Shown: one piece after another, positions 9,790 through 64,000 of the stretch
Layout: every line of letters starts with the position of its first letter
Numbering within the stretch: the first letter of the stretch is position 1
Assembly: GCF_902652985.1 (NCBI RefSeq)
Contig: NC_047016.1
Span: 1,488,001-1,552,000 of the forward strand
DNA length: 64,000 nt
Direction of reading: 5' to 3'
Origin: Pecten maximus
Taxonomy: Eukaryota
Notes under the pieces: generated by a model
The model's input: only the letters and a program-made list of their open reading frames with translations
Told to the model about the DNA's origin: nothing
Database searches by the model: none
Made by a program: the position numbers and the translations under genes

Positions 9790-10290
9790 CAAACAAGTCA
9801 GTCGTATACAAACAAGTCAGTCGTATACAAACAAGTCAGTCGTATACAAACAAGTCAGTCGTATACAAACAAGTCAGTCATATACAAACAAGTCAGTCAT
9901 ATACAAACAAGTCAGTCGTATACAAACAAGTCAGGTTATATCCAAACAAGTCATTCGTATCCAAACAAGTTGGGTCATATCCATGCAAGTCTGTTCTATC
10001 CATACAAGTCTGTCCATATGAGTCGGTTGTTTACATACAAGTCTTTTCTATCCATATATGTCAGTTGTAGTGTCCATGTGTCAGTTGTAGTGTCCATGTG
10101 TCAGTTGTAGTGTCCACGTGTCAGTTGTAGTGTCCACGTGTCAGTTGAAGTGTCCATATGTCAGTTGTAGTGTCCATGTGTCAGTTGTAGTGTCCATGTG
10201 TCAGTCGTAGCGTCCATGTGTCAGTCAAAGCGTCCATGTGTCAATTGTAGTGTCCCTGTGTCAGTTGTAGTGTCCATGTGTCAGTTGTAT
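9790..10290. repeat. 19-bp and 20-bp minisatellites just 3' of the CCDC151 stop
   Basis: AAACAAGTCAGTCGTATAC (9790-9970) and TGTCAGTTGTAGTGTCCATG (10058-10290). Confidence 0.9.
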
Positions 10291-16300: not shown

Positions 16301-19300
16301 GGTGTAGTTTATGACTTACTGCCATGAGATGGTGTAGTTTATGACTTATAGCCATGAGATGGTGTAGTTTATGACTTAATTACTGCTATGAGATGGTGTA
16401 GTTTATGACTTACTGCCACGAGATGGTGTATTTATGACTTACTGCCATGAGATGGTGTAGTTTATGACTTATAGCCATGAGATGGTGTAGTTTATGACTT
16501 ACTGCCATGAGATGGTGTAGTTTATGACTTACTGCTATGAGATGGTGTAGTTTATGAGTTATAGCCATGAGATGGTGTAGTTTATGACTTACTGCCACGA
16601 GATGGTGTATTTATGACTTACTGCCTTCAGGTGGTGTAGTTTGTCAGTCAGGTGCTCCACACCAGCCTTGACAGACACCATGATGGTGCTGTTCCTGTGA
16701 AGTGTCTCCTCGGTCTCTTCCTGTCGGGTCTCCTCCTTCTGTAGCTGGGCCTGGAACTCCTCCAGCATTCTCTGTCCACTGTTACATTTTACAGAAAATC
16801 TTTAGTGTGTCTGATGTCTACCATAATTTTATTGTCCATTACCTTTGTCTACTGTAAAACATCAATATGACTGGCACTCATAGCACAAATAAATCTCTCT
16901 TACCTGGATAATTTAGCATCTCCAGAGTACTTCATCTCCTCAAACTCCTGCTGAAGTTTCTCCTTATCCTCACGCAGCCTTGTGATGGACTTTTCATTCT
17001 GATTCTTGAGATCTTCTAGGTGTTTGGTAGTGGCTCCTTGGCCCTCAAACCGATGGACCACTTCCTGTACAATGTATAAAGTTTCAACAATTGTAAAATG
17101 CATTTAAACTGTAAACTAAACCAATATTTCAGGCCAACAATGATCATAAGAATTTAAAGTGTTGAATCGTCTGTGATGAGTGACTTACCATAGTGTCAGA
17201 CACACCAGTGGCCTCCTTGATGTGTCGGAAGGCCTCTTCATACGAAGAGATCTTCTGCTGCTGTTCCTCTCCCTGAAGGGCCTGTTTCTCCTGGGGGTTA
17301 ATGTCATCAGCCTGGATAGACCCCCTCTGGGCCTGTAATACCAAAATATAACAAAGTTTCAACTGATGCTGTTAGCAGTATACATATTTGTAACTAGAAT
17401 TATCAGATGCAGCCAAAATATTTAATGGATATAACTGATAGGTGTAAAAATTTGATGGATATAACTGATAGGTGTAAATATTTGATGGATATAACTGATA
17501 GGTGTAAATATTTGATGGATATAACTGATAGGTGTAAATATTTGATGGATATAACTGATAAGTCTAAATATTTGATGGATATAACTGATATGTGTAAATA
17601 TTTGATGGATATAAATGATAGGTGTAAGAAAACTTACAATTCTGCGCTCAATCCTCTCGTGTTGTATCTTCTTATCCTCTGCTTCCTTCTTCATTTTCTG
17701 TAGTTCTATCTCGCGTTGTTTCCTCTCTGTGTAGACCACTTTTTCATTCTTTGCCAATTCTGCCTGGGCAGCCTCTTTTGAGATCTGGGCATCATCGTGC
17801 ATAGCCTTGAGTTCCTTAAGTTCACTTCTTGTGCTGCGGATCTCTGCTTCCATGGCATCAAGTACACATGGGAATTTCTCAGCTTCCTATACAAAGAGTC
17901 AAAATCAATGCTTTCTTCTTTTAGAGTTTACCTTTTGTTTTAAAAATATTTATAATCTTAATTCAAAATTCTCAGACACTTGTAATACATTTTGTTTCAT
18001 TTTGATATACCAGGCAGTTATCAGAATATATTTTCAATTGAATTTGACACAATGGCATAAATCAGACTTTGAAGTATGCAAAATTAAAAGGACATTTTGT
18101 TTGCATTTTTAAACATATACTGTAATTTCCTGCATATTGCCCATGAGCTATGCGGGCAATCTACCAGTGTGGGCTATCTGGAATTTATTTTACAAAAGCA
18201 TAAAAAATGCCTGAATTTACATCACACAGGCTATACCCCCAAGCGGGCAATACACAGGAAATGAAGGTAAGTAAATTGTTAATCTTGTAATGAAAAACCT
18301 ACCACTTCCAGCTTCTTCTTGATGTCCTCATAAATTCGTTTTAGATGCATGGCCTCATCAATCTTAAGACTAGTCTTATCATAACTGTTCTCCAAGTACC
18401 GCATTGTCTGAAAACAACCATTAACATTTTAAAGAGTAATTTATGGCTTTTAATTGATTATGAAGCAGTTCACATTTTGCTGTTGTATATGTCTATGCCA
18501 GTACACATGTATTTACACCTGTCATACAGTCAGTACCTGGGCGTCAGCAGATTCACCCTTGTCTGTAGCCACGGCCTCAGAACTATCCTGTACCATCTGT
18601 TCATACTTAGTCTGTAGCGTCTCAACTCTCTTTTGTTTGGAAGCTGTTTGGTGGCGCAGATTGTTGAGGCGCTTGACAGTGTCACACACTTTGTGGTCCA
18701 TGATCGTGATGGCTTGCTGCAACAAGAATTAAGCCAGTTCAGATAAATCATTTAATCAATTACTTTATGAACTTTTATTTCGTAAAATACATCGCATGCA
18801 GATTAAACATCCAGAGTTATTCTCTACTCACCCTTCCAGTTTTATTCTTCATGGCAGCTTTCTCTACAGGACGATCCCCAAATGCTTTGTTAATCACATG
18901 ATGGTCTTGCTGTTAATAAAAGAAAAGAATCCATTATCATATCTGCTTAAGTATAGGTATTAACATTTTAAACAGAAATAATCAAAACCCGGTGAATAAA
19001 TTATAGATAATCTATTAAAATTTTTATGGCAATTGATTATTTAATGAACTTAAATGTCAACCTACACACAAGGAGTCACTGAGCTTCTTCCTCACTTCCT
19101 TGTTTTCACGACGAAGCGTTAAAATGTTCTCTCTGTTCTTTTTCATTGCATACTGAGAGGTTTCGTAGTAAGCCTTTCGATCGCCCTCTGGAAAGCAGGA
19201 AATTGATTAATATAAAACAGGAAGACAATAGCAACATGTAAATACACAGATGTAAACAAAATATGATGTACTTATTTAGTTTAACTTAATCTTATTCTAA

Positions 19301-22525: not shown

Positions 22526-22679
22526 AATGACTGTGAATGTTAAATTAAGATATCGAACTTGCATTGTTGAAAACAAAAGAGAATAAACGTTCCAATTTTT
22601 TTTAAGCGCAGTCTTTTCCATTTAGTTTCATAAAAACATGTAGCTAGGAGCCACAGAGCCACTCCATCTCTATAATGTT

Positions 22680-25570
22680 GATTCTCCCCAACACCAATAC
22701 CAGTACTGTAATATAAACCTGTTTATCCCCAACACCAATACCAGTACTGTAATATAAACCGGATTCTCCCCAACACCAATACCAGTACTGTAAATATAAA
22801 CCTGATTCTCCCCAACACCAATACCAGTACTGTAAATATAAACCTGCTTCTCCCCAACACCAATACCAGTACTGTAAATATAAACCTGATTCTCCCCAAC
22901 ACCAATACCAGTACTGTAAATATAAACCTGCTTCTCCCCAACACCAATACCAGTACTGTAAATATAAACCTGTTTATCCCCAACACCAATACCAGTACTG
23001 TAAATATAAACCTGATTCTCCCCAACACCAATACCAGTACTGTAAATATAAACCTGCTTCTCCCCAACACCAATACCAGTACTGTAATATAAACCTGTAT
23101 CTCCCCAACACCAATACCAGTACTGTAAATATAAACCTGTTTATCCCCAACACCAATACCAGTACTGTAATATAAACCTGATTCTCCCCAACACCAATAC
23201 CAGTACTGTAAATATAAACCTGATTCTCCCCAACACCAAAACCAGTACTGGTAAACCTGTATCTCCCCAACACCAATACCAGTACTGTAATACAAGAGGC
23301 CCAATGGGCCTGTATCGCTCACCTGGCTCTACTGCAACTTTGAAGTTGATTGAGGTCATTTCTACATATACTATGCTGATTATCATAGTAAGCTAGGTTT
23401 ATTCATATTAATAAATTTTCTAGTCCTTCATTCCAGCATTTTATTGGCCAAATATCTGGTCTAGGAGGCTCTTGGCTATCGCAAAATTATTGTTTACAGA
23501 TTTAAGCCGATTTCACCCCTGTGACCTTAAATGTAGGTCAAGGGTCATTCATTTGAACAAACTTTGTTGCCCTTCACCCCAGCATGCTACAGGCCCAATA
23601 TCAAGTCCCTGGGCCTCTTGGTTATTAAGAAGAAGTCATTTGAAGAATATAGCCTATTTGACCCATGTGACCTTTAATGAAGGTCAAGGTCATTTATTTG
23701 AATAAACTTTGTAGCCCTTCATCCCAGCTTGCTACAGACCCAATATCAAGTCCATGGGCCGCTTGGTTATTGAGAAGAAGTCGTTTGAAGATTATAGCCT
23801 ATTTGACAAATGTGACCTTGAATGAAGGTCAAGGTCATTTATTTGAACAAACTTTGTAGCCGTTCACCCAAGCATGCTACAGGCCCAATATCAAGTTCCT
23901 GGGCCTCTTGGTTATTGAGAAGAAGTCGTTTGAAGATTATAGCCTATTTGACCAGTGTGACCTTGAATGAAGGTCAAGGTCATTTATTTGAACAAACTTG
24001 GTAGTCCTTCACCCCAGCAAGCTACAGGCTCAATATCAAGTCCCTTGGCCTCTTGGTTATTGAGAAGAAGTCGTTTGAAGATTATAGCCTATTTGACCCA
24101 TGTGACCTTGAATGAAGGTCAAGGTCATTTATTTTAACAAACTTAGTAGCCCTTCATCCCAGCATGCTACAGACCCAATATCAAGTCCCTGGACCTCTTG
24201 TTTATGGAGAAGAAGTCGTTTGAAGATTATAGCCTATTTGACCCATGTGACCTTGAATGAAGGTCAAGGTCAATTATTTGAACAAACTTGGTAGCCCTTC
24301 ATCCCAGTATGCTACAGGCCCAATATGAAGTTCCTGGGTCTCTTGGTTATTGAGAAGAAGTTGTTTAAATGAAAAAGTTGACGCCGGACGGCCGGACGGC
24401 CGGACGGACGGACGGACGACGGACGCCGCACCATGGCATAAGCTCACTTGCCCTTCGGGCAGGTGAGCTAATAAACCTGATTCTCCCCAACACCAATACC
24501 AGTACTGTAATATAAACCTGATTCTCCCCAACACCAATACCAGTACTGTAAATATTAACCCGATTCTCCCCAACACCAATACCAGTACTGGTAAACCTGT
24601 ATCTCCCCAACACCAATACCAGTACTGTAAATATAAACCTGATTCTCCCCAACACCAATACCAGTACTGTAAATATAAACCTGATTCTCCCCAACACCAA
24701 TACCAGTACTGTAATATAAACCTGATTCTCCCCAACACCAATACCAGTACTGTAAATATTAACCCGATTTCCCCAACACCAATACCAGTACTGGTAAACC
24801 TGTATCTCCCCAACACCAATACCAGTACTGTTAATATAAACCTGTTTCTCCCCAACACCAATACCAGTACTGTAATATAAACCTGTATCTCCCCAACACC
24901 AATACCAGTACTGTAAATATAAACCTGTTTATCCCCAACACCAATACCAGTACTGTAATATAAACCTGCTTCTCCCCAACACCAATACCAGTACTGTAAA
25001 TATAAACCTGATTCTCCCCAACACCAATACCAGTACTGTAAATATAAACCTGATTCTCCCCAACACCAATACCAGTACTGTAATATAAACCTGTTTATCC
25101 CCAACACCAATACCAGTACTGGTAAACCTGTATCTCCCCAACACCAATACCAGTACTGGTAAACCTGTATCTCCCCAACACCAATACCAGTACTGTAAAT
25201 ATAAACCTGATTCTCCCCAACACCAATACCAGTACTGTAAATATAAACCTGATTCTCCCCAACACCAATACCAGTACTGTAATATAAACCTGTTTATCCC
25301 CAACACCAATACCAGTACTGGTAAACCTGTATCTCCCCAACACCAATACCAGTACTGTAAATACAAACCTGATTCTCCCCAACACCAATACCAGTACTGT
25401 AAATATAAACCTGTTTATCCCCAACACCAATACCAGTACTGGTAAACCTGTATCTCCCCAACACCAATACCAGTACTGTAATATAAACCTGATTCTCCCC
25501 AACACCAATACCAGTACTGTAAATATTAACCCGATTCTCCCCAACACCAATACCAGTATTGGTAAACCCG
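22680..25570. repeat. 39-44-bp minisatellite interrupted by a HINE
   Basis: Unit GATTCTCCCCAACACCAATACCAGTACTGTAAATATAAACCT. Confidence 0.93.
23292..24470 (-). mobile_element. Non-autonomous Helentron-type (HINE) element with ~145-bp internal tandem repeats
   Basis: Minus-strand 5' end TAGCTCACCTGCCCGAAGGGCAAGTGAGCT, then a (GTCC)n tract. The 3' end is CAGGTGAGCG plus the hairpin AGGCCCATTGGGCCT. About 6 core repeats. It is inserted in a satellite unit without a TSD. Confidence 0.8.
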
Positions 25571-34941: not shown

Positions 34942-37581
34942 TCACAAATCCAGTTCTCTGCTGCTCCTCGCCTGATTCAGGACGTGCCTATCAAACAGGT
35001 ACTGGAAAGCGATGTGGAAATTCATCAGAGCACAGTCATGTTCACTTCCATTCATGAATGGAGGCATCAAGTCAAGGACCATGTTCAAATGGGCATAAAG
35101 TTTTGTGAACATTTCCTTTTCCAGTTGAGTCAGCATGACAATGATTACCGTAAGCATGTCGTCTGCACACGGTTGGTATACACAGCCAGGGGGAGAGGAA
35201 TCCACTTTTAACTTGGATACCTCCTTAGCAACTATCTTGAAAGCTTTTGTGATATTTTTCATTTTTAAATTAATTGGTGCTACTTTGATCACCTCCTCGA
35301 TGTTGCTGCTGAACCTTCTTACAGATTCCTCAGATGAGAGACTCTGCATTCTGCCACCAGAGGACAGCACCTCTGTATCACTCAGAGATGTGAATATTTC
35401 AGCACCCTCTGGCATTTTAGATACTTCCTCGTATGACGGTAGAGGTAGATGGGCGTCTGATGTATCAGCCATTGCTGAAGCCTCCTGATAGGATGGAGGT
35501 TTTGTGTTCACCTCATTTCTTCGATTTCCTCCTTGCCATGAATACATCTCACTTTCTGTGTCATCCTCCTCAGTCTCACTAAATGGAAAATCATCAATGC
35601 CTCCCATATCCTCCAACTCTCTATTAGCACACAGATAAAGTCTATCAATGGACATTGCTCCAAGTGTGCTCGATAACTTTTTTATCTGATCTTGTCTTTT
35701 GTTCCCACTTTTTCCAGGATTCCTTAGTGTTACAGAGTCCATATCATCCAAAGGTACCTTTCGTTCGGTGTTTTCCCAGTCCTCTGGTTCACTTACAATC
35801 GCTAGCCAGGGATCATCAATGCCAAGTTCATTCATAGAAACCCCTACAAGTTTCTCTGCCAAATTTGTTGACTTTCTCTTGTATCTGTTTTCATACAGCA
35901 TATTCAGTCTGACAGAAATTCTCTCATACAAATGAGATTCATAGCAAAGCCAAACATTTTTATATGTGTCCTTATTGTTCTTCTGCCTTGTTTTTGAATT
36001 TTCTCTCAGATCTTCTTGTCTGAGGATATAAATTATGCGCTGACACATTTCATCCATGTGCTTTTTTATCTCAGACTTAACAGAGTCCATGAGTGAGTGA
36101 AGTGGCAGTGTGTTAGAGTGGTAAACTTCTCCATGGTCCAACACTGGTTTTGACTGGGCATGCTGGGAGGATAACAGTTTGTCTTTATTAGCATTTATAT
36201 CTGGGAAACCTTCATGTTTACAAATGTTCACAAATCCTTCACATTCTGGATCTTGGCCATCTTCTGACAATTGAGAAAGGAAACTAGTTTCATCCATAGA
36301 TCCATCGATTTTCTGTAAAATATTTTCACAGAAATGATGATACTGGTGCTGTATGTCACCACTGTTGACAACAGATGAGACTCGTTCCCCAATGGTTGTC
36401 CATTCCTTTGGTTTAGTACTCAAGATTCCAACATCGGTTGAACTGCAGGCTCCATCATAAAGTGACTGCCAACCCAATGAATGCCCTACTGTATCCAGTT
36501 CTCCAAGTGCCAAACAAATAGCTTCTCTGACTGATGCTATTTTCACCTTCCTTAGAATTAGTTTGTGCATGACTTCCTTTTCACTTCGAAGTCTCACTGT
36601 GATCTCCAAGTAAATCTCATGGAATACTTTTAAACTTACTTTCCGTGATCTTCTCCTTCTGGATGATTGTATTTGTTGACGAACAACTACATTCTTGATA
36701 TTTTCACGCATCATTTGCATTTTTATAAGTACTTGGTGTACTTTATCCCTCTCTTTGCGAGCTCTATCCAACTGCTCCTTCACGTGGTTACCTTGAATGT
36801 CCCTCAACTCATTGACATGGGTTTGACATCTTTGCATTTGTTCAGCTTCTTGTTGAATATCTTTTTCCAAATGAAGGAGAAATAACTTTAAGAAATCAAC
36901 ATTGCATTCCCTGATGTAGCTTTCTCTTTCAAATTTTGGATCCTTAAGAAAACTATCCCTCTGCTTACGCAATGAACTCTCAGTCAACGAAATAGCCTTG
37001 TCTTTTTGAAGGATTTCTGTTTCCGCATTTTTTAGACAAACTTCAATACATTGGAGAGCTGTCTTCAGAGAAGGTGAATCATCAATGTTCAGGTTAATAG
37101 ATGGTAAAATATAGCAGTGTACCAAACGGAGAATCTCCTGGTTGAATCTAGATGGCAGATGATCTTCAATGTCTGGCTCAACACTCATACATACAGAAGC
37201 TCTTAGTGGTAAGATTTGTGGATTTTCAAAAAAGGCCCTAGCAGAGTGAAATAAATCATCCACTTCCGAATCAAATTCCATGCACTGACTGCTTTCTGTA
37301 CTCTCTTTAAGACCGAGGACTTCTAGTTGTTTATCTGGCGACATTGAAGCCCGTTCCTCTGGCGACAATGGACATAGATTGTCGTTTGATTTTATCCATC
37401 GCAGGACTTTGAAATCACACTCAACCAAAACGGAGTCGATTATCAAAGTTTTAAACCAAATTCCGGGCTCAATAAATTTCAAGTCCCCTCCCACTTTGCC
37501 GACCATCGGTAGGAAGCCGTCATGGAGATTCACATCTGGGACAACGAACGTTTCACCATTAAACTTGAAATAGATGTACAT
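34942..37581 (-). CDS. Coiled-coil plus C-terminal VPS9-domain protein (putative Rab5-family GEF); 2.6-kb uninterrupted exon
   Basis: 879-codon non-repetitive ORF. The C-terminal PCADDMLTVIIVMLTQ...LYAHLNMVLDLMPPFMNGSEHDCALMNFHIAFQYL fits the VPS9 consensus (ADD catalytic Asp, GE.Y/C-like helix). The ORF's TGA lies inside a GTGAGT donor (exon end 34946), so splicing probably extends it. Confidence 0.8.
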   Translation of the reverse strand: MYIYFKFNGETFVVPDVNLHDGFLPMVGKVGGDLKFIEPGIWFKTLIIDSVLVECDFKVLRWIKSNDNLCPLSPEERASMSPDKQLEVLGLKESTESSQCMEFDSEVDDLFHSARAFFENPQILPLRASVCMSVEPDIEDHLPSRFNQEILRLVHCYILPSINLNIDDSPSLKTALQCIEVCLKNAETEILQKDKAISLTESSLRKQRDSFLKDPKFERESYIRECNVDFLKLFLLHLEKDIQQEAEQMQRCQTHVNELRDIQGNHVKEQLDRARKERDKVHQVLIKMQMMRENIKNVVVRQQIQSSRRRRSRKVSLKVFHEIYLEITVRLRSEKEVMHKLILRKVKIASVREAICLALGELDTVGHSLGWQSLYDGACSSTDVGILSTKPKEWTTIGERVSSVVNSGDIQHQYHHFCENILQKIDGSMDETSFLSQLSEDGQDPECEGFVNICKHEGFPDINANKDKLLSSQHAQSKPVLDHGEVYHSNTLPLHSLMDSVKSEIKKHMDEMCQRIIYILRQEDLRENSKTRQKNNKDTYKNVWLCYESHLYERISVRLNMLYENRYKRKSTNLAEKLVGVSMNELGIDDPWLAIVSEPEDWENTERKVPLDDMDSVTLRNPGKSGNKRQDQIKKLSSTLGAMSIDRLYLCANRELEDMGGIDDFPFSETEEDDTESEMYSWQGGNRRNEVNTKPPSYQEASAMADTSDAHLPLPSYEEVSKMPEGAEIFTSLSDTEVLSSGGRMQSLSSEESVRRFSSNIEEVIKVAPINLKMKNITKAFKIVAKEVSKLKVDSSPPGCVYQPCADDMLTVIIVMLTQLEKEMFTKLYAHLNMVLDLMPPFMNGSEHDCALMNFHIAFQYLFDRHVLNQARSSRELDL

Positions 37582-37945
37582 TTCGGAGAGATCTTTAATC
37601 CTTCCACATTATATCCGAGCGGCTGAGTCACAAAAGTTGACCTCGGGGAAGTATGTAGAGTATGTATACATGTACGTTGTTAATCGAAATAGAAAGTAGG
37701 AACGAGTCGCTTAAGATATAATAAATAATACATATATTTCAAATCCATATAATTACCAAATCAGTATCAAACAATCAACTGATTATGGATATTATTGTTG
37801 TTGTTATTTTTAAAACGTGTATTAAAATATGTATTACACAAAGGATATCTTTAATTAATAATGTGCTTTAATTTTTGTGTGCCTATGCGGCTCATTTTAG
37901 ACAGTGAATTTCCGATGTATTTTCCAAAGAACCAGCAAACAAGTA
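37582..37945. promoter_or_regulatory. Probable bidirectional promoter (VPS9 gene / DR1 non-coding first exon) with an ARE/AP-1 motif
   Basis: GCTGAGTCAC at 37622-37631 (GTGACTCAGC on the minus strand). A plus-strand donor AA|GTAAGT at 37943 and an acceptor TTTTAAAG| at 39804 lie upstream of the DR1 ATG. Confidence 0.4.
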
Positions 37946-38349: not shown

Positions 38350-38777
38350 TGTAACAGGAAAGAGAGTCGTGTGTCTCCAACGGGGATCGAACCAGCGACC
38401 CCCGGCTTACTGGTTCACCGCTCTACCGACTGAGCTAAAGGGAAATTCCCCCTAGCGCGAAGCTAGAAAGCGACTATTTCACTATGTACAATTAAAACCT
38501 GCCACACTACTCTCCCCCCTTTCAAATGTGTTCACCCCCAAACTCACAACCCAGGTTCTATCTCCAACAAAGTCTCTCATTCTCCTATAGCTTACACTTG
38601 GAGTGGTTAACGACACCAAATGTAACAGGAAAGAGAGTCGTGTGCCTCCACCAGGGATCGAACCAGCGACCCTCGGCTTACTGGTCTGCCGCTCTATCGA
38701 CTGAGCTAAAGGGAAATTCCCCCTAGCGCGAAGCTAGAAGGCGACCATATCACTATGTACAATTAAAACCTGCAACA
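38350..38777 (-). mobile_element. Non-autonomous LTR retrotransposon (TRIM) with tRNA-like sequence in both LTRs (Helenus-like)
   Basis: Two 157-bp direct repeats, 38350-38506 and 38621-38777, with TGT...ACA ends. AATG TSD at 38346-49 and 38778-81. On the minus strand, PBS TGGTGTCGTTAACC follows the 5' LTR and PPT AAAGGGGGGAGAGTAG precedes the 3' LTR. The internal region is 114 bp. Confidence 0.9.
38373..38444 (-). ncRNA. tRNA-derived Pol III promoter cassette in the 3' LTR (second copy ~38644-38715); not a functional tRNA
   Basis: A box TAGCTCAGTCGGTAGAGC and B box GGTTCGATCC, with an AGT-like triplet in the anticodon position. The acceptor and anticodon stems are imperfect. Confidence 0.7.
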
Positions 38778-39272
38778 AATGATACTCTGATTTTCCTCTG
38801 GACCTGACAATAGACTTAGACATTTTGACAGCTAGATGTCTGGTGTAGGGCCAGAGCACATGTCTTCTCTTATGAAAATGTGGAATTCTTCATCAAATAT
38901 CTGATGGAAATACAGATCATTGGTATGTTATGAAGATCAGACGGTGTCTGGTTTGGGTTCATGTTCAGATGTTCAACCAACCAATGATCATAGTTTAACT
39001 GGTAAAATTTTGCTAGAATCTACTTCCTCTTGGCAACTTCATGGTTTGTCCATATTGAATAGATTGTATTCCAGAGTCCCTAATGTCAATCAAACTAAGA
39101 TGGATGCACTCATCGCCAGCCTGTTGTCCAAAACAATGTTTATTGTGTAGATTGTAGAGTTTTCATTGTAACAGACGATGCTACAGAAAGAAAAGAAGTA
39201 GTAAAACAATGGATAGATCAGAGGCTAATTAACATTTTCAATAATTTTTCAATTTCAATTGATTCATCTTCT

Positions 39273-39446: not shown

Positions 39447-40052
39447 GAAAACATTATGTTCATTACATAGGTAGAATCTCTACTTTATACCACAAGGTAC
39501 TATCCAAGAAGATTATGGCCATTGGAGACAATAGGAGTGTTGGTTCTCCTGCCATTGGTAGTTTCTATAATGGTACACTGACTTTTAGTAAAACTTTTAG
39601 TATTGTTTGATTCAAATATATATCACAATTGCCTGATAATTTGAGATGAAAGTTGCACTTTGAAATATTTCATTGTTATCATTTTATTATTTCTTTTTTT
39701 ACAAATTTTTAAATAACAACATTACATCTAATCAATAAATTTTAGCTAAGATTGCACTGTAAATTATATGTCATTTTTACTTTCTATCTCTTTTTATTTT
39801 AAAGGTGAAGTCAACTTAATTGAAGCAACATCCATGAAATATGATATCAAAGTGCCAGAGTGAAGCAGTATACTTCCATATCACCACATTTCAATGAATG
39901 TTACCAGCCTCAGTCATCAGTGATAACTGTACTGTAACAAATTCTCCTAGTGAAACATCTACAGAAAATAGAAAGCTTGTTTAACATAAATGTGGATTTG
40001 CTGATTGAGAATCTGATCAATTAAGGAGTATATAGTACCTGACATATAAAAT

Positions 40053-42880
40053 ATGGCGGACAATAGAGAAGATGATGAACTCAGTATACCAAGAGCAGCA
40101 CTGAATAAGATGATCAAAGAACTGATACCAAACATACGGGTAGCAAATGATGCAAGGGAGTTAATTCTCAACTGCTGTACAGAATTTATCCACCTTGTAT
40201 CTTCAGAGGCAAATGACATTTGTAATAAACAACAAAAGAAGACAATATCTCCAGAACATGTATTAGCAGGTAAATGTTAACCTTTTTTAATTGAAAGGGG
40301 TTACGGGTATCCATATTCATCAAATCTCGCACTCTATTGTTCTAGATCTGTTGAGGTAGAAACAGTTTAACAAAAATGTCACTTTAAAGAATATTAACCC
40401 CTGTTTGCACTAATTTTAGAAAATATCTTCTATGCAATGATTTATGATGCTTCAAACAAAGAGTACAGTACACGGAATATGTGACTTAAAAATCAAATAT
40501 ACAGATATGAAAAAGTGAGACTTGGTAATCATAGTTCATAATAGATTAATTTGATCATAAGCAATGAAAAGTAAATTTGACTCTAGGTTATTATGTATAT
40601 ACCAGGTAAACATATATTATACTTATAGTGACTAGGATGATACTGTAAGATGTATTATGATGGTTGAAATCCTTGGACAGCCTCGGCTTCAGTGGACTTG
40701 TGTATAAACATATAATTTATATTATAGTGACTAGCTATATAGGATGATACTGATATTATAATTGTTTACAGCCTTGGACAGCCTCGGCTTCAGTGGACTT
40801 GTGTATAAACATGTATTATAGTGACTAGGATGATACTGTAAGATATGATGGTTTACAGCCTTGGACAGCCTCGGCTTCAGTGGACTTGTGTATAAACATG
40901 TATTATAGTGACTAGGATGATACTGATATTATAATAGTTTACAGCTTTGGACAGCCTCGGCTTCAGTGGACTTGTGTATAAACATGTACATGTATTATAG
41001 TGACTAGGATGATACTGATATTATGATGGTTTACAGCTTGGACAGCCTCGGCTTCAGTGGACTTGTGTATAAACATGTATTATAGTGACTAGGATGATAC
41101 TGATATTATGATGGTTTACAGCTTGGACAGCCTCGGCTTCAGTGGACTTGTGTATAAACATGTATTATAGTGACTAGGATGATACTGATATTATGATGGT
41201 TTACAGCCTTGGACAGTCTCGGCTTCAGTAGACTTGTGTATAAACATGTATTATAGTGACTAGGATGATACTGATATTATGATGGTTCACAGCCTTGGAC
41301 AGTCTCGGCTTCAGTAGACTTGTGTATAAACATGTATTATAGTGACTAGGATGATACTGATATTATGATGGTTTACAGCCTTGGACAGCCTCGGCTTCAG
41401 TGGACTTGTGTATAAACATGTATTATAGTGACTAGGATGATACTGATATTATGATGGTTTACAGCCTTGGACAGCCTCGGCTTCAGTGGACTTGTGTATA
41501 AACATGTATTATAGTGACTAGGATGATACTGATATTATGATGGTTTCCAGCCTTGGACAGCCTCGGCTTCAGTGGACTTGTGTATAAACATGTATTATAG
41601 TGACTAGGATGATACTGATATTATGATGGTTGACAGCCTTGGACAGTCTCGGCTTCAGTGGATACAAGGAGGATGCTGTAGCTGTTCTAGAAGAGGCTAA
41701 AGCTGTTGCTGCAAAGAAACGTAAGGGAAGTTCCCGTTTGGAGAACCTTGGAATCCCAGAGGAAGAACTATTACGTCAACAACAAGAGTTATTTGCCAGA
41801 GTAAGTGACCATTAACTTCCAGTATACTGTAAACGTGGAAATTCACGTGAGGGGGAAATTTATGCCAATTGATCGGATCCGTTTTGATTGCGAAAATTTC
41901 TCCCACGTGTATTATTTTGATGTTAATTTGATTAACTCGAACTACAAACAAAGGTGGGTCAATCGTGAAAATTACCCCTGTGCGTATAGCTTACGTATCA
42001 AAATTGTGAAATTAAACCCCCGCGAAAATAACCACATTTACCGTAGGTATTGTATTGTTTAACAAATACATATTACAAGCAATAATGTTTAAAATCAACT
42101 TATTAAGTCTGATGAGTTTCATTGACTTTGAAATGATTATATCAAAACATTTTAAGTAGTTTAATAGGAAAGTTGTAAGACACATCTGTTATCCATTATT
42201 ATTATTTAATTATTGATCTGTATCTTTATATAATGATGTTGGTTTCATACAGGTAGATTATATAATGGTATCGCCCTGTGTGGTAGATTGTTAGCTCACC
42301 TGGCCTGCAGACTTTTCACATTTCAATGGCAGCCATCTTGAAAAACACATTTTAAACTTCTTCTCCTGTTACACTGATGCCATTGAGCTGGAAATCGGTT
42401 AGATGTTAAGCAAGTGGAGCCAACAAAGTGTTATTATTTTTTGGCCTGGGTAAAATTTTGACATGGCAGCCACAGCGGCCATTTTGTAACATGATTGTGC
42501 AAGCATGGTCTTCCTTAACATCACCGATGGGATTGAGCTGAAACTTGTCTGGAATGATCCTGAGGTGGTCCTTCCCAAGTATTGTTATTTTTCGAGTCGG
42601 TATGAAATTGAAGATGGCCAACATAGCAGTCATCTTGAAAAACACATTTTAAACTGGTGGCCAATTTGTAACATGATTGTGTAATCATGGTTTCCTGAAC
42701 AACACCTATTTCAATACAAGTATACTGTGTAAATGTATTGTGTTTCCTTATTAGGCACGACAGGAACAAGCTCAACTAGAACAACAACAATGGATACAGA
42801 TGCAACAGGCATTACAACAACAACAACAACAACAGCAGCAGCAACAACAACAACATGACGGTGATGATGATTACTCATAG
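40053..42880 (+). CDS. DR1: Protein Dr1 / NC2-beta, histone-fold TBP-associated repressor, 168 aa
   Basis: Exons 40053-40269, 41637-41800 and 42755-42880. DDELSIPRAALNKMIKELIPNIRVANDARELILNCCTEFIHLVSSEANDIC and RLENLGIPEEELLRQQQELFA are characteristic DR1 sequences, followed by a Q-rich tail. Confidence 0.96.
40600..41660 (+). repeat. 86-bp minisatellite built from the DR1 exon 2 acceptor junction
   Basis: About 12 units ...GATGGTTTACAG|CCTTGGACAGCCTCGGCTTCAGTGGA...; the last unit is the real exon start at 41637. Confidence 0.95.
41827..42043. mobile_element. TA-flanked MITE in DR1 intron 2
   Basis: TA|CTGTAAACGTGG ... CCACATTTACCG|TA imperfect TIRs with internal CGCGAAAAT-type motifs. Confidence 0.55.
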
Positions 42881-43598
42881 CAGTGACCACATTGATAAGG
42901 ACAGATGTAGCCACACAGGGAAAACAACATCCGACGCCCCCTAAATGTTACAGAAAATTAAACAGGACATCCACTGTTATACTGATTCAGGAGAAAGTGT
43001 GTAAATGATAAAGCTCAAAGACGATGAAGAGATTCTCAGGATATGTGATTGATATACTGTTCAACTCAAGCTTCTAAAAAGACTGACATAAAATCAGAAA
43101 TGTGAATTTCATTTTAATAGAAAGATTGTAATATTAAAGCTACACAAAAGATACCCAACTTTATATCAGCGTGAAATTGAAAATTTTTAATCCATTAGAG
43201 TTGTATTTACACACCTGTAACTTTGTCAGTGAGAATTTCTAGTACAGACTGGTTTATTAGCTCACCAGGCTCAAAGGGTCAAGTGTCACCAGGTCCAAAG
43301 GGTCAAGTGTCACCAGGCCCAAAGGGTCAAGTGAGCTTATGTCATGAAGCAGCATTTATCGTCTGTCCGTTGTCCGTTGTCCGTCATCCGAACTTCATAT
43401 TTAAGGTCACAGGTGTCTTATTCCTTCAATCATTTCAATGACTTCTCATCATTCAAGAGTCCTGATATATAGCTGATAGGTTCCCTTTGTGAGGCCCAAC
43501 AACTTTTGCGAAAAGAAATTATGGTTTGTACAGACCTTGAAAAGTGCTTTAATTTCAGGTCTTACAGTGTTTGAAAGTCCTGAAATTTTCATATTTTT

Positions 43599-45518
43599 AG
43601 GTCATCTGACCCAAAGGGTCAGGATGACCTATAGTCATCGTGTTTCGTCCGTCGTCGTCCGCCGTGCGCCGTGCGCCGTCCGTAAACTTTTTCTTTCAAA
43701 ACGCTACTCCTCCTTAACGCTTGGGTGGATTACTTCCAAATTTGGTTTGAAGCATCATTGGGGGAGGGCAATCATATTTTATATAAATGAGGCTGGTCTG
43801 ACCCCTGGGGCCAGAAGGGCGGGGCGCCAAAAAGGGAACTTAGGTGAATATTGCTATAAAATCCTACTCCTCCTTTACCCTTGGGCGGATTACAACTAAA
43901 TTTGGTTTGAAACATCATTGGGGGAGGGCGGTCATATTTTATATAAATGAGGCTGGTGTGAGCCCTGGGGCCTGAGGGGCGGGGCCCCAAAAGGGGAACT
44001 TTGATGAAATTTTGCTATAAAATCCTACTCCTCCTTAACCCTTTGGTGGATTTCAACCAGATATTGTGTGAAACATCATTTGGGGAGGGTGATCATATTT
44101 TATATAAATGAGGCTGGTGTGACCCCTAGGGCCTGAGGGGCGGGGCCCCAAATGGGGAACTTTGATGAAATTTTGCTTTAAAATCCTACTCCTCCTTAAC
44201 CCTTTAGTGGATTTCAACCAGATATGTTGTGAAACATCATTTGGGGAGGGCGGTCATATATTTTATATAAATGAGGCTAGTGTGACCCCTGGGGCCTGAG
44301 GGGCGGGGCCCCAAAAGGGCAACTTTGATGAAATTTTGCTTTAAAATACTACTCCTCCAAAACCCAAAAGTAGATTATTACAAAATTTGGTGTGGAACAT
44401 CGTTAGAGGAGGACAATCATGTTTTATATAGATGAGGCTGGTCTGACCCCTGGGGCCAGAGGGGCCGGGCCCCAAATAGGGAACTTTCGTGGATATTTGC
44501 TATAAAATCCTACTCCTCCTTTACCCTTTGGTGGATTACAACTAAATTTGGTGTGAAACATCATTGGGGGAGGGTGGTCATATTTTATATAAATGAGGCT
44601 GGTGTGAGCCCTGGGGCCAGAGTGACGGGCCCAAAAAAGGGAACTTTGATGAAATTTTGCTATAAAATCCTACTCGTCCTTAACCCTTTGGTGGATTTCA
44701 ACCAGATATTGTGTGAAACATCATTGGGGGAGGGTGGTCATATTTTATATAAATGAGGCTGGTGTGGCCCCTGGGGCCAGAGGGGCGGGGCCCCAAAAGG
44801 GGAACTTTGATGAAATTTTGCTTTAAAATACTACTCCTCCTAACCCCCATAGTGAATTATTACCAAATTTGGTGTGAAACATCATTGGAGGAGGACAATC
44901 ATATCTTATATAAATGAGGCTGGTTTGACCCCTAGGGCCAGAGGGGCGGGGCCCAAAAAGGTGAACTTTGGTGAATTTTTGCTATAAATCCTACTTCTCT
45001 CTAACCCTTGGGTGGATTAATACGAAATATGGTGTAAAACATCCTTTGGGAAGGGTGGTCATATTTTATATAAACGAGGCTAGTGTGACCCCTGGGGCCT
45101 GAGGGGCAGGGCCCCAAAAGGGTGGTGAATATTTGCTGTTAAATCCTAATCCTCCCTAACCTTTTGGTGGATTACAACCTAATTTGATGTGAAACATAAG
45201 GTGACGGCAATCATATTTTTTAATGAGACAGGTTTGACCCATGGGGAAAAAAAGATGGGGCAAAAGGAGCGCTTAGGTTAAACATTTCATAAAAATGCAA
45301 TTCCTCCTTAATGCCTTAATTGATTACAACCATATTTAGTATGAAACATCATTGGGGAAAGGCAATCCTAATTGTTATAAATGAGTCTTTTCTGACCCAT
45401 TGGGACAGAGGGGCATGCCCCAAAAATGGGAACTTGGCTAAAATTTTGCTTTATGATGCTGCTCTTCCTGGACAAGCTAAATGGATAAAAACCAAATTTG
45501 ATCCAAAACATAACTGGC
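43599..45518 (+). mobile_element. Helentron-type element with ~161-bp tandem array, 3'-truncated
   Basis: Begins in a T-run with the hairpin AGGTCATCTGACCCAAAGGGTCAGGATGACCT and a CGTC-rich tract, then ~11 copies of a 161-bp unit (ATCCTACTCCTCC...GAGGGGCGGGGCCCCAAAAGGGG). No 3' terminus is visible. Confidence 0.72.
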
Positions 45519-46204
45519 CATATTACAAGCAATAATGTTTAAAATCAACTTATTAAGTCTGATGAGTTTCCTTGACTTTGAAATGATTATATCAAAACAT
45601 TTTAAGTAGTTTAATAGGAAAGTTGTAAGACACATCTGTTATCCATTATTATTATTTAATTATTGATCTGTATCTTTATATAATGATGTTGGTTTCATAC
45701 AGGTAGATTATATAATGGTATCGCCCTGTGTGGTAGATTGTTAGCTCACCTGGCCTGCAGACTTTTCACATTTCAATGGCAGCCATCTTGAAAAACACAT
45801 TTTAAACTTCTTCTCCTGTTACACTGATGCCATTGAGCTGGAAATCGGTTAGATGTTTAGCAAGTGGAGCCAACAAAGTGTTATTATTTCTTGGCCTGGG
45901 TAAAATTTTGACATGGCAGCCACAGCGGCCATTTTGTAACATGATTGTGCAATCATGGTCTTCCTTAACATCACCGATGGGATTGAGCTGAAACTTGTCT
46001 GGAATGATCCTGAGGTGGTCCTTCCCAAGTATTGTTATTTTTCGAGTCGGTATGAAATTGAAGATGGCCAACATAGCAGTCATCTTGAAAAACACATTTT
46101 AAACTGGTGGCCATTTTGAAACATGATTGTGCAATCATGGTTTCCTGAACAACACCTATTTCAATACAAGTATATTGTGTAAATGTATTGTGTTTCCTTA
46201 TTAG

Positions 46205-46333
46205 GCACGACAGGAACAAGCTCAACTAGAACAACAACAATGGATACAGATGCAACAGGCATTACAACAACAACAACAACAACAACAGCAGCAGCAACAA
46301 CAACAACATGACGGTGATGATGATTACTCATAG
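46205..46333 (+). CDS. DR1: Second copy of the DR1 terminal exon (14 Q versus 13 Q) inside a 1.5-kb duplication
   Basis: Same acceptor and intact frame to TAG, with one extra CAA codon. It may be an alternative last exon or an uncollapsed allele. Confidence 0.5.
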   Translation, partial: ARQEQAQLEQQQWIQMQQALQQQQQQQQQQQQQQHDGDDDYS

Positions 46334-46709
46334 CAGTGACCACATTGATAAGGACAGATCTAGCCACACAGGGAAAACAACATCCGACGCCCCCTAAATG
46401 TTACAGAAAATTAAACAGGACATCCACTGTTATACTGATTCAGGAGAAAGTGTGTAAATGATAAAGCTCAAAGACGATGAAGAGATTCTCAGGATATGTG
46501 ATTGATATACTGTTCGACTCAAGCTTCTAAAAAGACTGACATAAAATCAGAAATGTGAATTTCATTTTAATAGAAAGATTGTAATATTAAAGCTACACAA
46601 AAGATACCCAACTTTATATCAGCGTGAAATTGAAAATTTTTAATCCATTAGAGTTGTATTTACACACCTGTAACTTTGTCAGTGAGAATTTCTAGTACAG
46701 ACTGGTTTA

Positions 46710-48378
46710 TTAGCTCACCAGGCTCAAAGGGTCAAGTGTCACCAGGTCCAAAGGGTCAAGTGTCACCAGGCCCAAAGGGTCAAGTGAGCTTATGTCATGA
46801 AGCAGCATTTATCGTCTGTCCGTTGTCCGTTGTCCGTCATCCGAACTTCATATTTAAGGTCACAGGTGTCTTATTCCTTCAATCATTTCAATGACTTCTC
46901 ATCATTCAAGAGTCCTGATATATAGCTGATAGGTTCCCTTTGTGAGGCCCAACAACTTTTGCGAAAAGAAATTATGGTTTGTACAGACCTTGAAAAGTGC
47001 TTTAATTTCAGGTCTTACAGTGTTTGAAAGTCCTGAAATTTTCATATTTTTTTTTAAGTCCTTGAAAAGTGCTTGAATTGTCATTTTTTTGTACTTTAGT
47101 TTTACTGAAAGTGCTTGATTTTTGTGTGTTACAGAATCAGTAAGAAAAATCCAGGATGTTTTAATCTATATTGATTTATTAATGTAACTGTCAATCTTAT
47201 CCATTTAGTAACCTATTTAAAACAAAGTGCAGTCTTTTGAGCACTTTACTTACACAACATAATTATATACTGTATTCAAGCATCTAGGAGATCTAGGCAG
47301 CATGTGTTACAAAGAGAAAGTAGGTTGCTTGATGGAGCCTCCTAGATATAGTTATAACTACAAATGGAAACAGAATTACCAATGCATGGGAAAAGGCTGT
47401 CTCTGGGGAATATGACATATACAGCTTGGTGTGTGAAAGGATATAGAAATGGGTATACCAAGGTAATTAGTGGCAGTCGGAGAAACAGATAATGTGAAAA
47501 TGTTCATCATACAAGTATAACAATGAAAGGTCGGAAAGCTTAATATCCCATCACAACAAAGAGCATACAAACAAATTCTACCAATATTATACAAGCCATT
47601 CTAGAATCTCCATTTCTTTACTATGTGGAAGTGAAACATCCTCATTTAAGTTTTGTAGACGATGCAAGCAGTAACAAATCACTTGTCCTATACATTCAAT
47701 GTATATTATTCCCAGGTCTTTATATAGCTACAGCTGTACATGTTTTTGAACAGTGTTATACCTTGGGGGGAAAGACAGTATGCAGTTGCATATTTAGCAT
47801 TGCAGAACATATCAAAGATATGTTGTCTAAATAGATATACACTTATTATGTAATCACTTCATTTTATTTGATGAATTCTAAAGCCAAAGAAACATATTTC
47901 AATGCAGATTCTGGGACAACAGTAATAAAATATTCATGGTAATATTCTGATATTTTACACATTAAAGATAAAAAGAGAACTCATTTCACTACAAGTTTGG
48001 CAAAAAAAAAAGGTACAAGGAAAATTGACAAAAGTGCTTCAATTTTAGTATGAAAAATCTGTACGAACCATGGAAATGACCTTGACTATATTAAAGATCA
48101 CAGGTGTCAAACTGCTCCAAACATTTTAATGACTTCTTATCACTATCCAAGACTCAAAGAGTCAAAATATTTGGGTAATAGGTTCCTTGGATGAGGCCCA
48201 ACAAAGTTTGCAAAAAGAAATAACATTGAACTGTATATTCAAGGTCACAGATGTCATATTGTTCAATCATATGAAGGACTTCTTCTGATTTCCTGAAAGG
48301 CCTAGAATTAATGGCAGAGAATCATCAAACAATTAAGTTAATACCAGGTGAGCGACACAGGCCCATTGTACCTCTTGT
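46710..48378 (+). mobile_element. Helentron-type (HINE) element, host of the 46973-48072 insertion; 5' part duplicated at ~43257-43519
   Basis: 5' TTAGCTCACCAGGC...GTGAGCT with a CGT/GTCC tract; 3' CAGGTGAGCGACACAGGCCCATTGTACCTCTTGT. Confidence 0.65.
46973..48072. mobile_element. Non-autonomous TIR element with 5-bp TSD (hAT5-like), nested in a Helentron-type element
   Basis: TIRs TATGGTTTGTACAGA / TCTGTACGAACCATG, GAAAT on both sides, and subterminal TTGAAAAGTGCTT/AAGTCC motifs. Its left end is also present at 43520-43598. Confidence 0.7.
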
Positions 48379-50068: not shown

Positions 50069-53000
50069 ATGGCCGACGAGATACCTGTTATTCCCAAAGT
50101 GACAAGTGTAGTTGTTCACAGTGGAAATATTGTCAACTGGAACAGACTAAAACGAAAACCAAATCAGACACCGTCAGAAGAGGTAAGTTAACGAGTGAAA
50201 ATGTTTCAATGACACGATGACATTGCTACAGAAATCGAGATGTTTGCGTTGTGTACTTCAGAATTGGGTTTGTTTATATTGGTGAAATGTCTGTTTTATG
50301 TTTAACTGTGAATTACAGTGATATTTCCAACTGTGACCATATTAACTCGCAGTATAATCGACTCCTTATTATTGTGAACTCTGAAATCATACTGTCTTAA
50401 CGAATCGAGTTATTATAGTATTGGGTATGATGATGGTATTGGCCATGTGCCGTCTGCCGGTCTGGTTTGTGACCGCAAACAGATCTACATAATTAATGTG
50501 TCTAACTTCAGTGATGTACTCAGCGTGATTTACGGTATAGCCTGTCTTGAGACACGAGATACTCGCTGTTTATTTTTGAATAATTATTTTGGGATGGAAT
50601 GAGATGAGGCAGTCGTGATATTCAGGACAGGATATATATATTAAGACCATGACTATGCATTTTTCTGGAAATTACGTACTTTTTTTTAGTTTGTTATATA
50701 TGCTAACCGCCTACAAGACCTCGGAACACATTAAGTGACAATTGTTCATAAGATTTTAACAGGGGTAACACACAAATTAGCAATTCATAATTTGTGTTCT
50801 TGATCTTGTATCAATATATTCCAGTAAATAACTTGTTTGACATATATAGAACAAGTTCTAGAAGGAGGTAAGGTATGGTCAAGTGTCACAGTGGAGAATC
50901 ATGTTTGATTATCACCAAGGTGACCATTGTTCAATAACCAGATCAGATGTGAACATATGAGGTTGACACTTGACCAACCAAATCACATGCTTGCGTTTCC
51001 CCCAGAACCCTGGTTTCCTCCCTCTGCATGCATCTATCCAGATTAAATCTTAATGGTTGTAAATCAAACAAAAATGTATCATAAATAAGTTCCTAAAATA
51101 CTGATACCTAACAAACATGAAACGTGGAGGAGCAAATTCTGAGACAACTCAAGTTGTAGATGCTGCTGTCATTGTACCAGTTTTGAAGTTTGTGTCTGAA
51201 GATGAATGGGGTCACCTGCCTGACCATGTGGGTTTTCCCCCGGGTAGTCAAAGGGTTTAGTCCAGTTTTGTCAGTCTATAAAACCCCTAATCCGAAGGGT
51301 TCTGATGTTAATATCGCTAAAAGCATAGTAAGATCGTCAGAAAATTCGGACTATAAAACCCCTAGCTCAAGTGTGACTAATATAAGTTGGTTTTACTCGT
51401 TTTGCAATTGTTGTAAGATAGATAAAGTTTAATTACAAACAAAACTACCCATATCATGTAATGATGATTGTTTGGTTTTCCTTTTTTCATAGCTTGTGGA
51501 ATGTGTTTCAAATTCTCTGGATAGTTTCTTCGATACAGCAGACAAAAATGAACTTCAGGTAAGAAATTGACAAAAAGGCGAGGAACTGACAGAATCTAAC
51601 ATTACGTAAGGGATGGGATAAAGGTCAACATCAGGTAGGGGAAGATATAACAGCAGGTTAACTTCATGTAAGGGCAATAATACAGGTAAACTTCATGTAA
51701 GGGCAATAATACAGGTAAACTTCATGTAAGGGCAATAATACAGGTAAACTTCATGTAAGGGCAATACTACAGGTAAACTTCATGTAGGGCAATGATACAG
51801 GTAAACTTCATGTAAGGCCAATAATACAGGTAAACTTCATGTAAGGCCAATAATACAGATAAACTTCATGTAAGGGCAATGATACAGGTAAACTTCATGT
51901 AAGGGCAATGATACAGGTAAACTTCATGTAAGGGCAATGATACAGGTAAATTTCAGTATAGGGAAGGAATATAGGTAAACTTTTGGTAAGGGAACATCAG
52001 GGATTCAGGTGGTGTTCGCTGTACTTAATGTTACTTAAATCTTATTTTTGTGTGTATTTTTTTCTCGCTAACCTGGCCTGAATGGCCAGTGATCATTTAC
52101 CATGTACAGTGCCTGTCGTCAGTCATTGATTCCTAAAAATTGCTGTTAGTCATGAACGTCGGACACTGTGGATTTTGACCAAATTTGGTCTGAAGTATCC
52201 TTTGGTGAAAGAATGTAATCACTTTTGTATAAATAGTTGGCATGGTCCCCAAGGGGCCCCAATAGCGGAAACACCTTTGTATTGTAGAGAAGAGATTAGT
52301 TTTAAAAGAGATCCAGGTGAGAGAGATACAGGCCCTCTGGGTCTATTTTAAAGATATGAATACTAAGTCGACAGTATATACATGTATAATTGGAATTCCA
52401 ATTGAATATCTAAATGGTTTATATTTCCTTGTTCCCTGACAGTATGCTACAAAGCTAGATTGTGTCCACTCCGAGTTTAAGAAGACACTGGCCATCGACA
52501 GTAACGATAGGGGTGACCTAAAACTAACAGGTATGTGTCTTAAACAGATTGATCTCATTATATATTTCATCCCTTTTACATAATTTTGATACATCAATAA
52601 TCCATTGTATTTAAGCATTGATGTCTTTTTTTTTAGTTTCATCGGGGTATGAAACAAATTTTGTTTGCAAACTGTATGAATCCGCGATGCGGATTCTTAC
52701 AGAAGTTTGCAAACAAAATTTGTTTCATACCCCGATGAAACTAAAAAATAATTGACATCAACGTTTATAATTAATTTTTGAAAATGATTTTCTAATTTAA
52801 AACATATTTTATGTACAATTTTACTGGTTTTAAATGGGATTCTTTTTCTCAAATCAATATGCAACGTCAATTGTCGTATTGTGACGTCACATTTTTCGCG
52901 CCATTCTCGGAATTTCTTTCATAGAAGAATGAAAAGAATTTTTTTGACCAATCACATTTGAGTATTTACCATGAAAACAAAGAAAAATTAATTATATACA

Positions 53001-62874: not shown

Positions 62875-63257
62875 TTAGGAATGTCCAGCAGAAGCTAACA
62901 GAGATATATTCCTTTTCACAGACATGCTGCGTAGTGGTGACAGAAGAGAGTTACCTCCCTTCTCTGGAGACACCGGTAACAAGCGTTTTCCTCTTGGTGT
63001 AGAGATAAGTTTCTCAAGGTCTATAATTTCCTTGGCCTGTTCTATAAGAGCACCTGCAGCCAGGTTAACATCCTGAGCAGCAAATTCTAATCGTTCCGTT
63101 TGGGAGTCGGACAACACGGACACATTGGTAAGGTCACTACTACAACTTGTCTGGAGCAGCAGGCTGTTGTCCTGTCCAGAAACTGCCATCAACTTGGCTG
63201 TACCTTTTTGTATCAGCTCAGAACAGCGACAAACCTTTCGCACATCATCTGTTTTAC
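62875..63257 (-). CDS. Terminal coding exon of an unidentified gene continuing beyond the window
   Basis: Acceptor ccccttactatttacag|GT followed by ~126 open codons (KTDDVRKVCRCSELIQKG...LLASAGHS*). The sequence is non-repetitive and protein-like, but I did not recognise the family. Confidence 0.65.
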
Positions 63258-64000
63258 CTGTAAATAGTAAGGGGTGGTATGTGTTTATACATGAACAGTT
63301 ACCAGTAAATAGTAAGGGGTGGTATGTGTTTATACTGAACAGTTACCTGTAAATAGTAAGGGGTGGTATGTGTTTATACATGAACAGTTACCAGTAAATA
63401 GTAAGGGGTGGTATGTGTTTATACTGAACAGTTACCTGTAAATAGTAAGGGGTGGTATGTGTTTATACTGAACAGTTACCTGTAAATAGTAAGGGGTGGT
63501 ATATGTTTATACTGAACAGTTACCAGTAAATAGTAAGGGGTGGTGTGTGATAGTTTATACTGAACAGTTACCAGTAAATAGTAAGGGGTGGTATGTGTTT
63601 ATACTGAACAGTTACCTGTAAATAGTAAGGGGTGGTATGTGTGTTTATACTGAACAGTTACCTGTAAATAGTAAGGGGTGGTGTGTGACAGTTTATACTG
63701 AACAGTTACCTGTAAATAGTAAGGTGTGGTATGTGATAGTTTATACTGAACAGTTACCTGTAAATAGTAAGGGGTGGTGTGTGAAAGTTTATACTGAACA
63801 GTTACCTGTAAATAGTAAGGGGTGGTATGTGAAAGTTTATACTGAACAGTTACCTGTAAATAGTAAGGTGTGGTATGTGAAAGTTTATACTGAACAGTTA
63901 CCTGTAAATAGTAAGGGGTGGTGTGTGTTTATACTGAAAAGTTACCAGTAAATAGTAAGTTGTGGTATGTGAAAGTTTATACTGAACAGTTACCTGTAAA
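63253..64000 (-). repeat. 44/48-bp minisatellite built from the acceptor of the 62875-63257 exon
   Basis: Minus-strand unit CACATACCACCCCTTACTATTTACAG|GTAACTGTTCAGTATAAA. Confidence 0.93.

What the first reader, a model, noticed from the sequence alone, without database searches (positions are those of the whole stretch)
40600..41800. DR1 exon 2 is preceded by ~11 decoy copies of its own acceptor and first ~25 coding bases
Decoys read TTTACAG|CCTTGGACAGCCTCGGCTTCAGTGGA, and one reads TTTCCAG. The real site is TTGACAG, apparently weaker than its decoys. Using a typical decoy gives ALDSLGFSGLVYKHVL* and a premature stop. A conserved transcription cofactor must therefore select the last of about 12 near-identical acceptors. 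Copy number could tune productive splicing (inference).
Basis: partly seen in the sequence, partly recalled or inferred. Interest (0 to 1): 0.7.

Follow-up and report, generated by a model that had tools for sequence, protein, structure and literature searches.

The report
Repeated splice acceptor in DR1 intron
In an invertebrate's single DR1 gene, an 86-base piece spanning the end of an intron and the start of the next exon is repeated twelve times, yet the assembled RNA joins to the last, genuine copy, so this is likely harmless clutter of a repeat type already described in lancelets.

Summary
The array is real. Twelve copies of an ~86-nt unit (40607-41662) carry the intron end plus the first 26 bases of DR1's second coding exon, which is transcript exon 3. 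Ten upstream copies keep the AG. All ten would give a premature stop, and all ten outscore the true site on a matrix built from this genome (5.0-8.9 against 4.4 bits). RNA contigs from 4 of 4 runs (four studies) join the donor at 40269 to the true exon. Contigs drop rare forms, so low decoy use is not excluded. This is a 'mirage' minisatellite, described in amphioxus Adh3, globins and PGBD5. It is common here: 8 of 198 predicted kinase splice sites carry one, and acceptors (2 of 99) sit at chance level. The last copy likely wins by exon definition, with NMD as back-up (both inferred). Nothing supports tuning by copy number. The scan already found this kind in this genome and in at least 12 genomes. 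Ordinary.

The parts
37913..37942 (+). 3' end of the non-coding first exon of DR1 (at least 56 nt long in one run); donor GT at 37943
   Evidence: loose ends before 39805 in 3 of 4 runs, located; donor 10.4 bits
39805..40269 (+). exon 2 (first coding exon; ATG at 40053), histone fold of DR1/NC2-beta; phase-1 donor at 40270
   Evidence: PF00808 E 2.7e-21; 1JFI_B E 4.4e-34; one match in G000; contigs
40270..41636 (+). intron of 1367 nt, GT..AG, holding the array
   Evidence: run X3 contig (738 nt, depth 14): letters 21-482 on exon 2, letters 483-649 on the true exon
40607..41662 (+). minisatellite ('mirage'): 12 copies of an ~86-nt unit, about 60 nt of intron with a branch-point-like word and AG plus 26 nt of exon
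40653..40740 (+). edge unit 1, diverged, no acceptor AG
   Evidence: 12-15 differences in 56 nt from the other units
40770..41550 (+). ten decoy acceptors; first exon-like bases at 40772, 40859, 40945, 41037, 41122, 41207, 41293, 41379, 41465, 41551; each leads to a stop 200-979 nt before the last junction
40772..40837 (+). possible 66-nt stop-containing cassette (decoy acceptor 8.6 bits, donor-like GT at 40838, 4.7 bits); predicted only, not seen in RNA
   Evidence: no contig covered 40807-40850 in 4 runs
   Evidence: 1JFI_B residues 78-131, E 3.1e-17; covered by one contig in 4 of 4 runs
42755..42880 (+). coding part of exon 4 (Gln-rich tail, stop at 42878-42880); whole protein 168 aa
   Evidence: joint 41800 to 42755, GT..AG, in 4 of 4 runs; translation

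Best explanation
An ~86-nt piece spanning an intron/exon border of DR1 is repeated twelve times and the assembled mRNA enters the exon at the last copy, likely because only that copy is followed by the full exon and its donor, which makes the array a likely neutral by-product of this genome's minisatellite turnover. Shown: the anatomy, the stops behind each decoy, the spliced form in contigs, and the same arrangement at other genes. Inferred: (a) origin by a local tandem duplication and unequal exchange. (b) Selection by exon definition. The true site makes a 164-nt exon; decoys would make exons of 250-1029 nt, against 68-301 nt for 47 predicted kinase exons. Each decoy runs into A+T-rich intron sequence without a good donor, while the true site is followed by purine-rich exon sequence. 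(c) NMD would clear any decoy-spliced RNA.
For: Contigs join donor 40269 to the 26 shared bases and go on with true-exon sequence in 4 of 4 runs from 4 studies. One contig covers the true exon and joins exon 4 in 4 of 4 runs, of which X2 and X15 look like one data set. Typical units hold no GT above 2 bits; only 40645 and 40838 reach 4.7. The 60 nt after the shared part hold 4 GAR words at the true site and 0 in a decoy. TRF covers 43% of the window and 21% of 60 kinase regions. 8 of 198 predicted splice sites carry such arrays, and acceptors (2 of 99) match the 1.85 expected by chance. Precedents: acceptor-side mirage in amphioxus BflGb6 with regular splicing; duplicated beta-globin acceptors spliced only to the distal site, though very inefficiently.
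Against: The true acceptor scores among the lowest (4 of 99 score as low or lower) and below all 10 decoys, whereas at the two kinase acceptor arrays the true site equals or beats its copies. A plain 5'-to-3' scan would pick an upstream AG; early globin duplication experiments used the proximal copy, with an opposite result from another group (F7 paper discussion). The nearest decoy would give a 250-nt exon, inside the normal range. Contigs drop rare forms and NMD would hide decoy products, so leak is not measured.
Confidence: 0.82

Rival explanations
1. The array drains some transcripts into NMD, so unit number tunes DR1 dose.
For: All 10 decoys outscore the true site and all give NMD-type stops 200-979 nt before the last junction. 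A 66-nt stop-containing cassette can be drawn at 40772-40837.
Against: No decoy-spliced contig in 7 runs laid. The same arrangement occurs at unrelated kinase genes at chance rate for acceptors. Mirages elsewhere are reported not to give aberrant mRNA.
Confidence: 0.08
2. Arrays are born at splice junctions more often than by chance (a splicing- or transcription-linked duplication process), and DR1 is one product.
For: Donors: 6 of 99 against 1.5 expected, p about 0.004; both sides 8 of 198 against 3.3, p about 0.02. Several other arrays in the window seem to abut exons (not checked against RNA).
Against: Acceptors, the case in hand, show no excess (2 of 99 against 1.85). The TRF-based version gives 7 of 198 against 3.9, p 0.09. 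The sample is small, one family, the introns are predicted, and the null positions are not independent. Longer survival of arrays seeded from G+C-richer exon sequence could give the same excess.
Confidence: 0.2
3. The array, or its copy number, is an assembly artefact.
For: No raw DNA reads were available. The nearby duplicate of exon 4 (42069-43599 against 45519-47052, 1520 of 1530 identical) may be an unmerged haplotype, so the local assembly is not beyond doubt.
Against: Structured variants shared by neighbouring units and a strongly diverged edge unit; unspliced array contigs in run X1.
Confidence: 0.04

Closest known systems
Amphioxus 'mirage' minisatellites: globin BflGb6 (acceptor side) and BflGb9 (PMC3087553, passages read); Adh3, troponin C, PGBD5 (PMC3902484, passages read). 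The original Adh3 paper (PMC117041) was not held and is known to me only through these citations and recall.
   Same: The tandem unit spans the intron end and exon start; many but not all units keep the AG; regular splicing persists; the far edge unit escapes homogenisation; the 86-nt unit lies within the reported 10-160 nt.
   Different: Another animal lineage (earlier scan notes call the genome a scallop; not checked here); 12 units against 3-6 in BflGb6; the true site scores below every decoy; length variation between alleles is not tested.
Human F7 intron 7 37-bp VNTR (PMC1557585; abstract and discussion read)
   Same: A minisatellite whose end unit spans an exon-intron border; several potentially functional pseudo-sites stay silent, and the site next to the exon wins even against stronger copies.
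   Different: Donor side, where first-come scanning explains the choice. For an acceptor array the winner is the last site, so exon definition is needed. F7 was tested by mutagenesis, DR1 was not.
Engineered duplicated beta-globin 3' splice sites with 14, 55 or 205 nt of exon behind the proximal copy (PMC5389562, passages read; Reed and Maniatis 1986 seen only as its reference)
   Same: An upstream copy followed by a truncated exon loses to the distal copy.
   Different: In vitro, two sites only, and splicing there was very inefficient.

Membership tests
mirage minisatellite | tandem repeat whose unit spans an exon-intron boundary | tested here: met
   12 units, about 60 nt intron plus 26 nt exon; boundary fixed by contigs
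mirage minisatellite | splice signal duplicated in many but not all units | tested here: met
   10 of 11 upstream units keep AG; 9 of 10 keep a branch-point-like word at -19
mirage minisatellite | regular splicing to the authentic site persists | tested here: met
   main form in 4 of 4 runs directly; rare forms not measurable with contigs
mirage minisatellite | length instability between haplotypes or in soma | not testable with these tools
   one assembly, no raw DNA reads served
mirage minisatellite | inner units homogenised, edge units excluded | tested here: inconclusive
   unit 1 differs at 12-15 of 56 positions and inner units at 0-8, but the authentic unit 12 differs from inner units at only 2-7
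DR1 / NC2-beta | N-terminal histone fold followed by the conserved C-terminal helices, colinear with human NC2-beta | tested here: met
   best PDB hit 1JFI_B for both coding exons, residues 8-75 and 78-131; NF-YB far weaker (E about 1e-9)
regulated poison exon / AS-NMD switch | measurable, regulated inclusion of the stop-containing form | tested here: inconclusive
   no such contig in 7 runs; contigs cannot show absence
regulated poison exon / AS-NMD switch | conservation of the element in related species | not testable with these tools
   G000 has no relatives in the genome tool

The most novel reading that the evidence does not exclude
The inner units have drifted to better acceptors than the authentic one, so the array is a natural copy-number rheostat: each added unit sends more DR1 pre-mRNA to premature stops and NMD, setting the dose of a general transcription cofactor allele by allele.
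Probability: 0.07. Interest if true: 0.6.

Novelty: new member of a known kind. Interest (0 to 1): 0.17.

Why it matters
As a single case it matters little: one more mirage in a repeat-rich genome. It is a tidy natural substrate for 3' splice-site choice, because ten stronger-scoring copies with the same branch-point region lose to the last one, which makes exon definition easy to test with minigenes. Such arrays can also mislead gene prediction and short-read mapping. If tuning by copy number were true, it would show a minisatellite acting as a splicing QTL on a core transcription factor.

Tried and rejected
Different exon boundary: rejected. Contigs and the human NC2-beta alignment agree on 41637. 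My in-script frame filter was off by one base and its 'open' label was not used.

Paralog or retrocopy as source of the RNA: one match for exon 2 in G000.

In-frame mini-exons inside a typical unit: the GT positions at 21 and 78 nt are in frame, the 78-nt form holds a stop, and no GT in a typical unit scores above 2 bits. One search used an exon 4 start one base off, corrected.

RNA structure hiding the decoys: predicted unpaired probability at -25..-1 was 0.25, 0.25 and 0.34 for three decoys and 0.41 for the true site; too small to lean on.

Lack of contig cover over the last decoy (41520-41633) is not counted as evidence, because unique intron sequence was also uncovered.

The 'n stronger' column for donors is distorted by rounding and was not used.

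Pfam named none of 8 neighbouring frames above its cut-off, so other arrays in the window stay unverified.

Literature searches that found no bivalve or acceptor-VNTR paper: 0 papers; 1, a placozoan repeat survey; 0; 9 listed, titles only, none clearly on point. Most subscription journals are not covered, so this does not show absence from print. No supplements were read; the BflGb6 unit alignment is in one.

Full report
Setting. The window is G000:C2:1488001-1552000, in a 918-Mb genome. Tandem repeats cover 43% of the window. The gene is DR1/NC2-beta: exon 40053-40268 hits PF00808, and both coding exons tested have human NC2-beta (1JFI_B) as best solved relative, at residues 8-75 and 78-131. 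The first coding exon has one match in G000, and the repeat unit matches only here, 12 times.

Observation. Twelve copies of the core lie at 40673-41639, mostly 85-87 nt apart. A unit holds about 60 nt of intron with a branch-point-like word at -19, the AG, and 26 exon bases. Unit 1 has no AG. Ten decoys keep it: 8 TTTACAG, 1 TTCACAG, 1 TTTCCAG. Joining the donor to any of the ten gives a stop after 88-90 aa, 200-979 nt before the last junction. Five give the quoted peptide, three give variants, and two are frameshifted.

RNA. The run search listed 24 runs, 20 holding part of the stretch, all kept as contigs and none as raw reads. I laid 7 of the 20. On 39700-40850 (X3, X1, X7, X16; four studies) each run has one contig covering exon 39805-40269. 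It jumps to the 26 shared bases, which the tool placed on the only AG decoy in that stretch, and goes on with the true exon's sequence as a loose end in 4 of 4 runs. On 41520-43250 (X2, X8, X3, X15) one contig per run covers 41634-41800 and joins 42755 by GT..AG. X2 and X15 give near-identical depths and are probably one data set. The X3 contig (738 nt, depth 14) appears in both calls with adjoining letters, so it spans the intron cleanly. No contig showed a join to a decoy followed by decoy sequence. Contigs drop rare forms, so this shows the main form only. X1 also holds two 61-nt unspliced contigs of array sequence (depth 2-3); the mismatch and gap counts of one fit units 5/6. This is weak, independent support for the array.

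Site strength. I searched G000 with PF00069 (135 matches) and fetched 10-kb regions around 60 short-exon matches of my choosing. I built a profile from 29 long-exon loci, found 175 exon hits and predicted 99 introns. On the resulting matrix the true DR1 acceptor scores 4.4 bits and the ten decoys 5.0-8.9. Only 4 of 99 training sites score as low; training scores are inflated because the matrix helped choose them. It is less strange than it sounds: 33 of 99 introns hold an AG scoring above their own acceptor, 5 of 99 hold ten or more, and the DR1 intron has three such AGs upstream of the array.

How common. With a junction-word test, 8 of 198 predicted boundaries carry at least two copies of their own junction on the intron side: 6 of 99 donors and 2 of 99 acceptors, against 1.5 and 1.85 expected from intron positions (p about 0.004 and 0.55; both 0.02). 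A TRF-based test gave 6 donors and 1 acceptor, 7 against 3.9 expected, p 0.09. So a few percent of splice sites sampled here look like this. Acceptor arrays need nothing beyond the genome's repeat density (21% TRF cover in these regions). A donor excess is possible but rests on small numbers, one gene family, predicted introns and a null with dependent positions.

Mechanism. A duplication across an acceptor always leaves the copy with the complete exon last, so the geometry follows from the origin. The choice is best explained by exon definition (established knowledge, not tested here). Pairing with the donor at 41801 gives 164 nt for the true site and 250-1029 nt for decoys; 47 predicted internal exons measured 68-301 nt. 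Typical units hold no donor-like GT and run into 32% G+C sequence with no GAR words, while the true site is followed by 45% G+C sequence with four. NMD would remove leaks (inference). Against this: the nearest decoy's 250 nt is a normal exon size; at the two kinase acceptor arrays the true site is not outscored; and older duplication experiments disagree on which copy wins.

Comparison. Tandem repeats spanning exon-intron borders are named mirages. PMC3087553 describes an acceptor-side case in amphioxus BflGb6 with 6 and 3 units on two haplotypes and regular splicing (passages). PMC3902484 lists globin, Adh, troponin C and PGBD5 cases (passages). The human F7 VNTR is the tested donor-side analogue (abstract and discussion). 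PMC5389562 reports distal-site use with duplicated beta-globin acceptors, at very low efficiency (passages). I reached the mirage reading. The scan's own notes then showed three cases in this genome and 48 findings in at least 12 genomes holding the search words; those are unchecked AI notes and are not counted as support.

Verdict. Observation confirmed with small corrections. It is a new member of a known kind, likely neutral. Tuning by copy number is untested and unlikely (0.07). Interest 0.17.

Noticed in passing
window 42069-43599 and 45519-47052 (+): DR1's last exon with 3'UTR and part of the intron before it is present twice, 1520 of 1530 letters identical. RNA contigs of X2/X15 carry the first copy's letters at 42907 and 43063, those of X8 and X3 the second copy's. 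This fits an unmerged haplotype in the assembly, or a real duplicate last exon.
   Followed up: partly
window 14826-16642 (-), donor at 16621: A 30-nt array copying the end of a coiled-coil exon (weak ODAD1 hit, E 0.0019) and its donor, about 33 units, split by an ~830-nt insert whose ends look like inverted repeats. Donor-side mirage; no RNA check.
   Followed up: partly
window 63254-64000 (-): An array of 16 or more units that seems to copy the acceptor and first bases of an open frame running to 62878; a second acceptor-side candidate, unverified.
   Followed up: no
window 9790-9970, 10854-12091, 1-2110, 51654-51982 (+); 22679-25558 (-): Further arrays whose units hold donor- or acceptor-like words at an array edge; the exons are not established.
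   Followed up: no
L040 (acceptor 4807), L083 (7987), L059, L092, L094, L096, L099 (positions on the gene's strand): Clear mirages in kinase genes elsewhere in G000, up to 59 donor copies in one 3.8-kb intron of L094.
   Followed up: partly
window 34945-37608 (-): An 888-codon open frame with no Pfam hit, head to head with DR1's non-coding first exon about 300 nt away; possibly a shared promoter.
   Followed up: no
window 40606 (+): At the array's upstream edge an AG|GT site scores 7.5 bits both as acceptor and as donor, like a recursive splice site; no RNA support.
   Followed up: no
window 38360-38780: Two direct copies of a ~250-nt element with a tRNA-like head on the minus strand, in DR1's first intron (read by eye); probably a SINE.
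   Followed up: no
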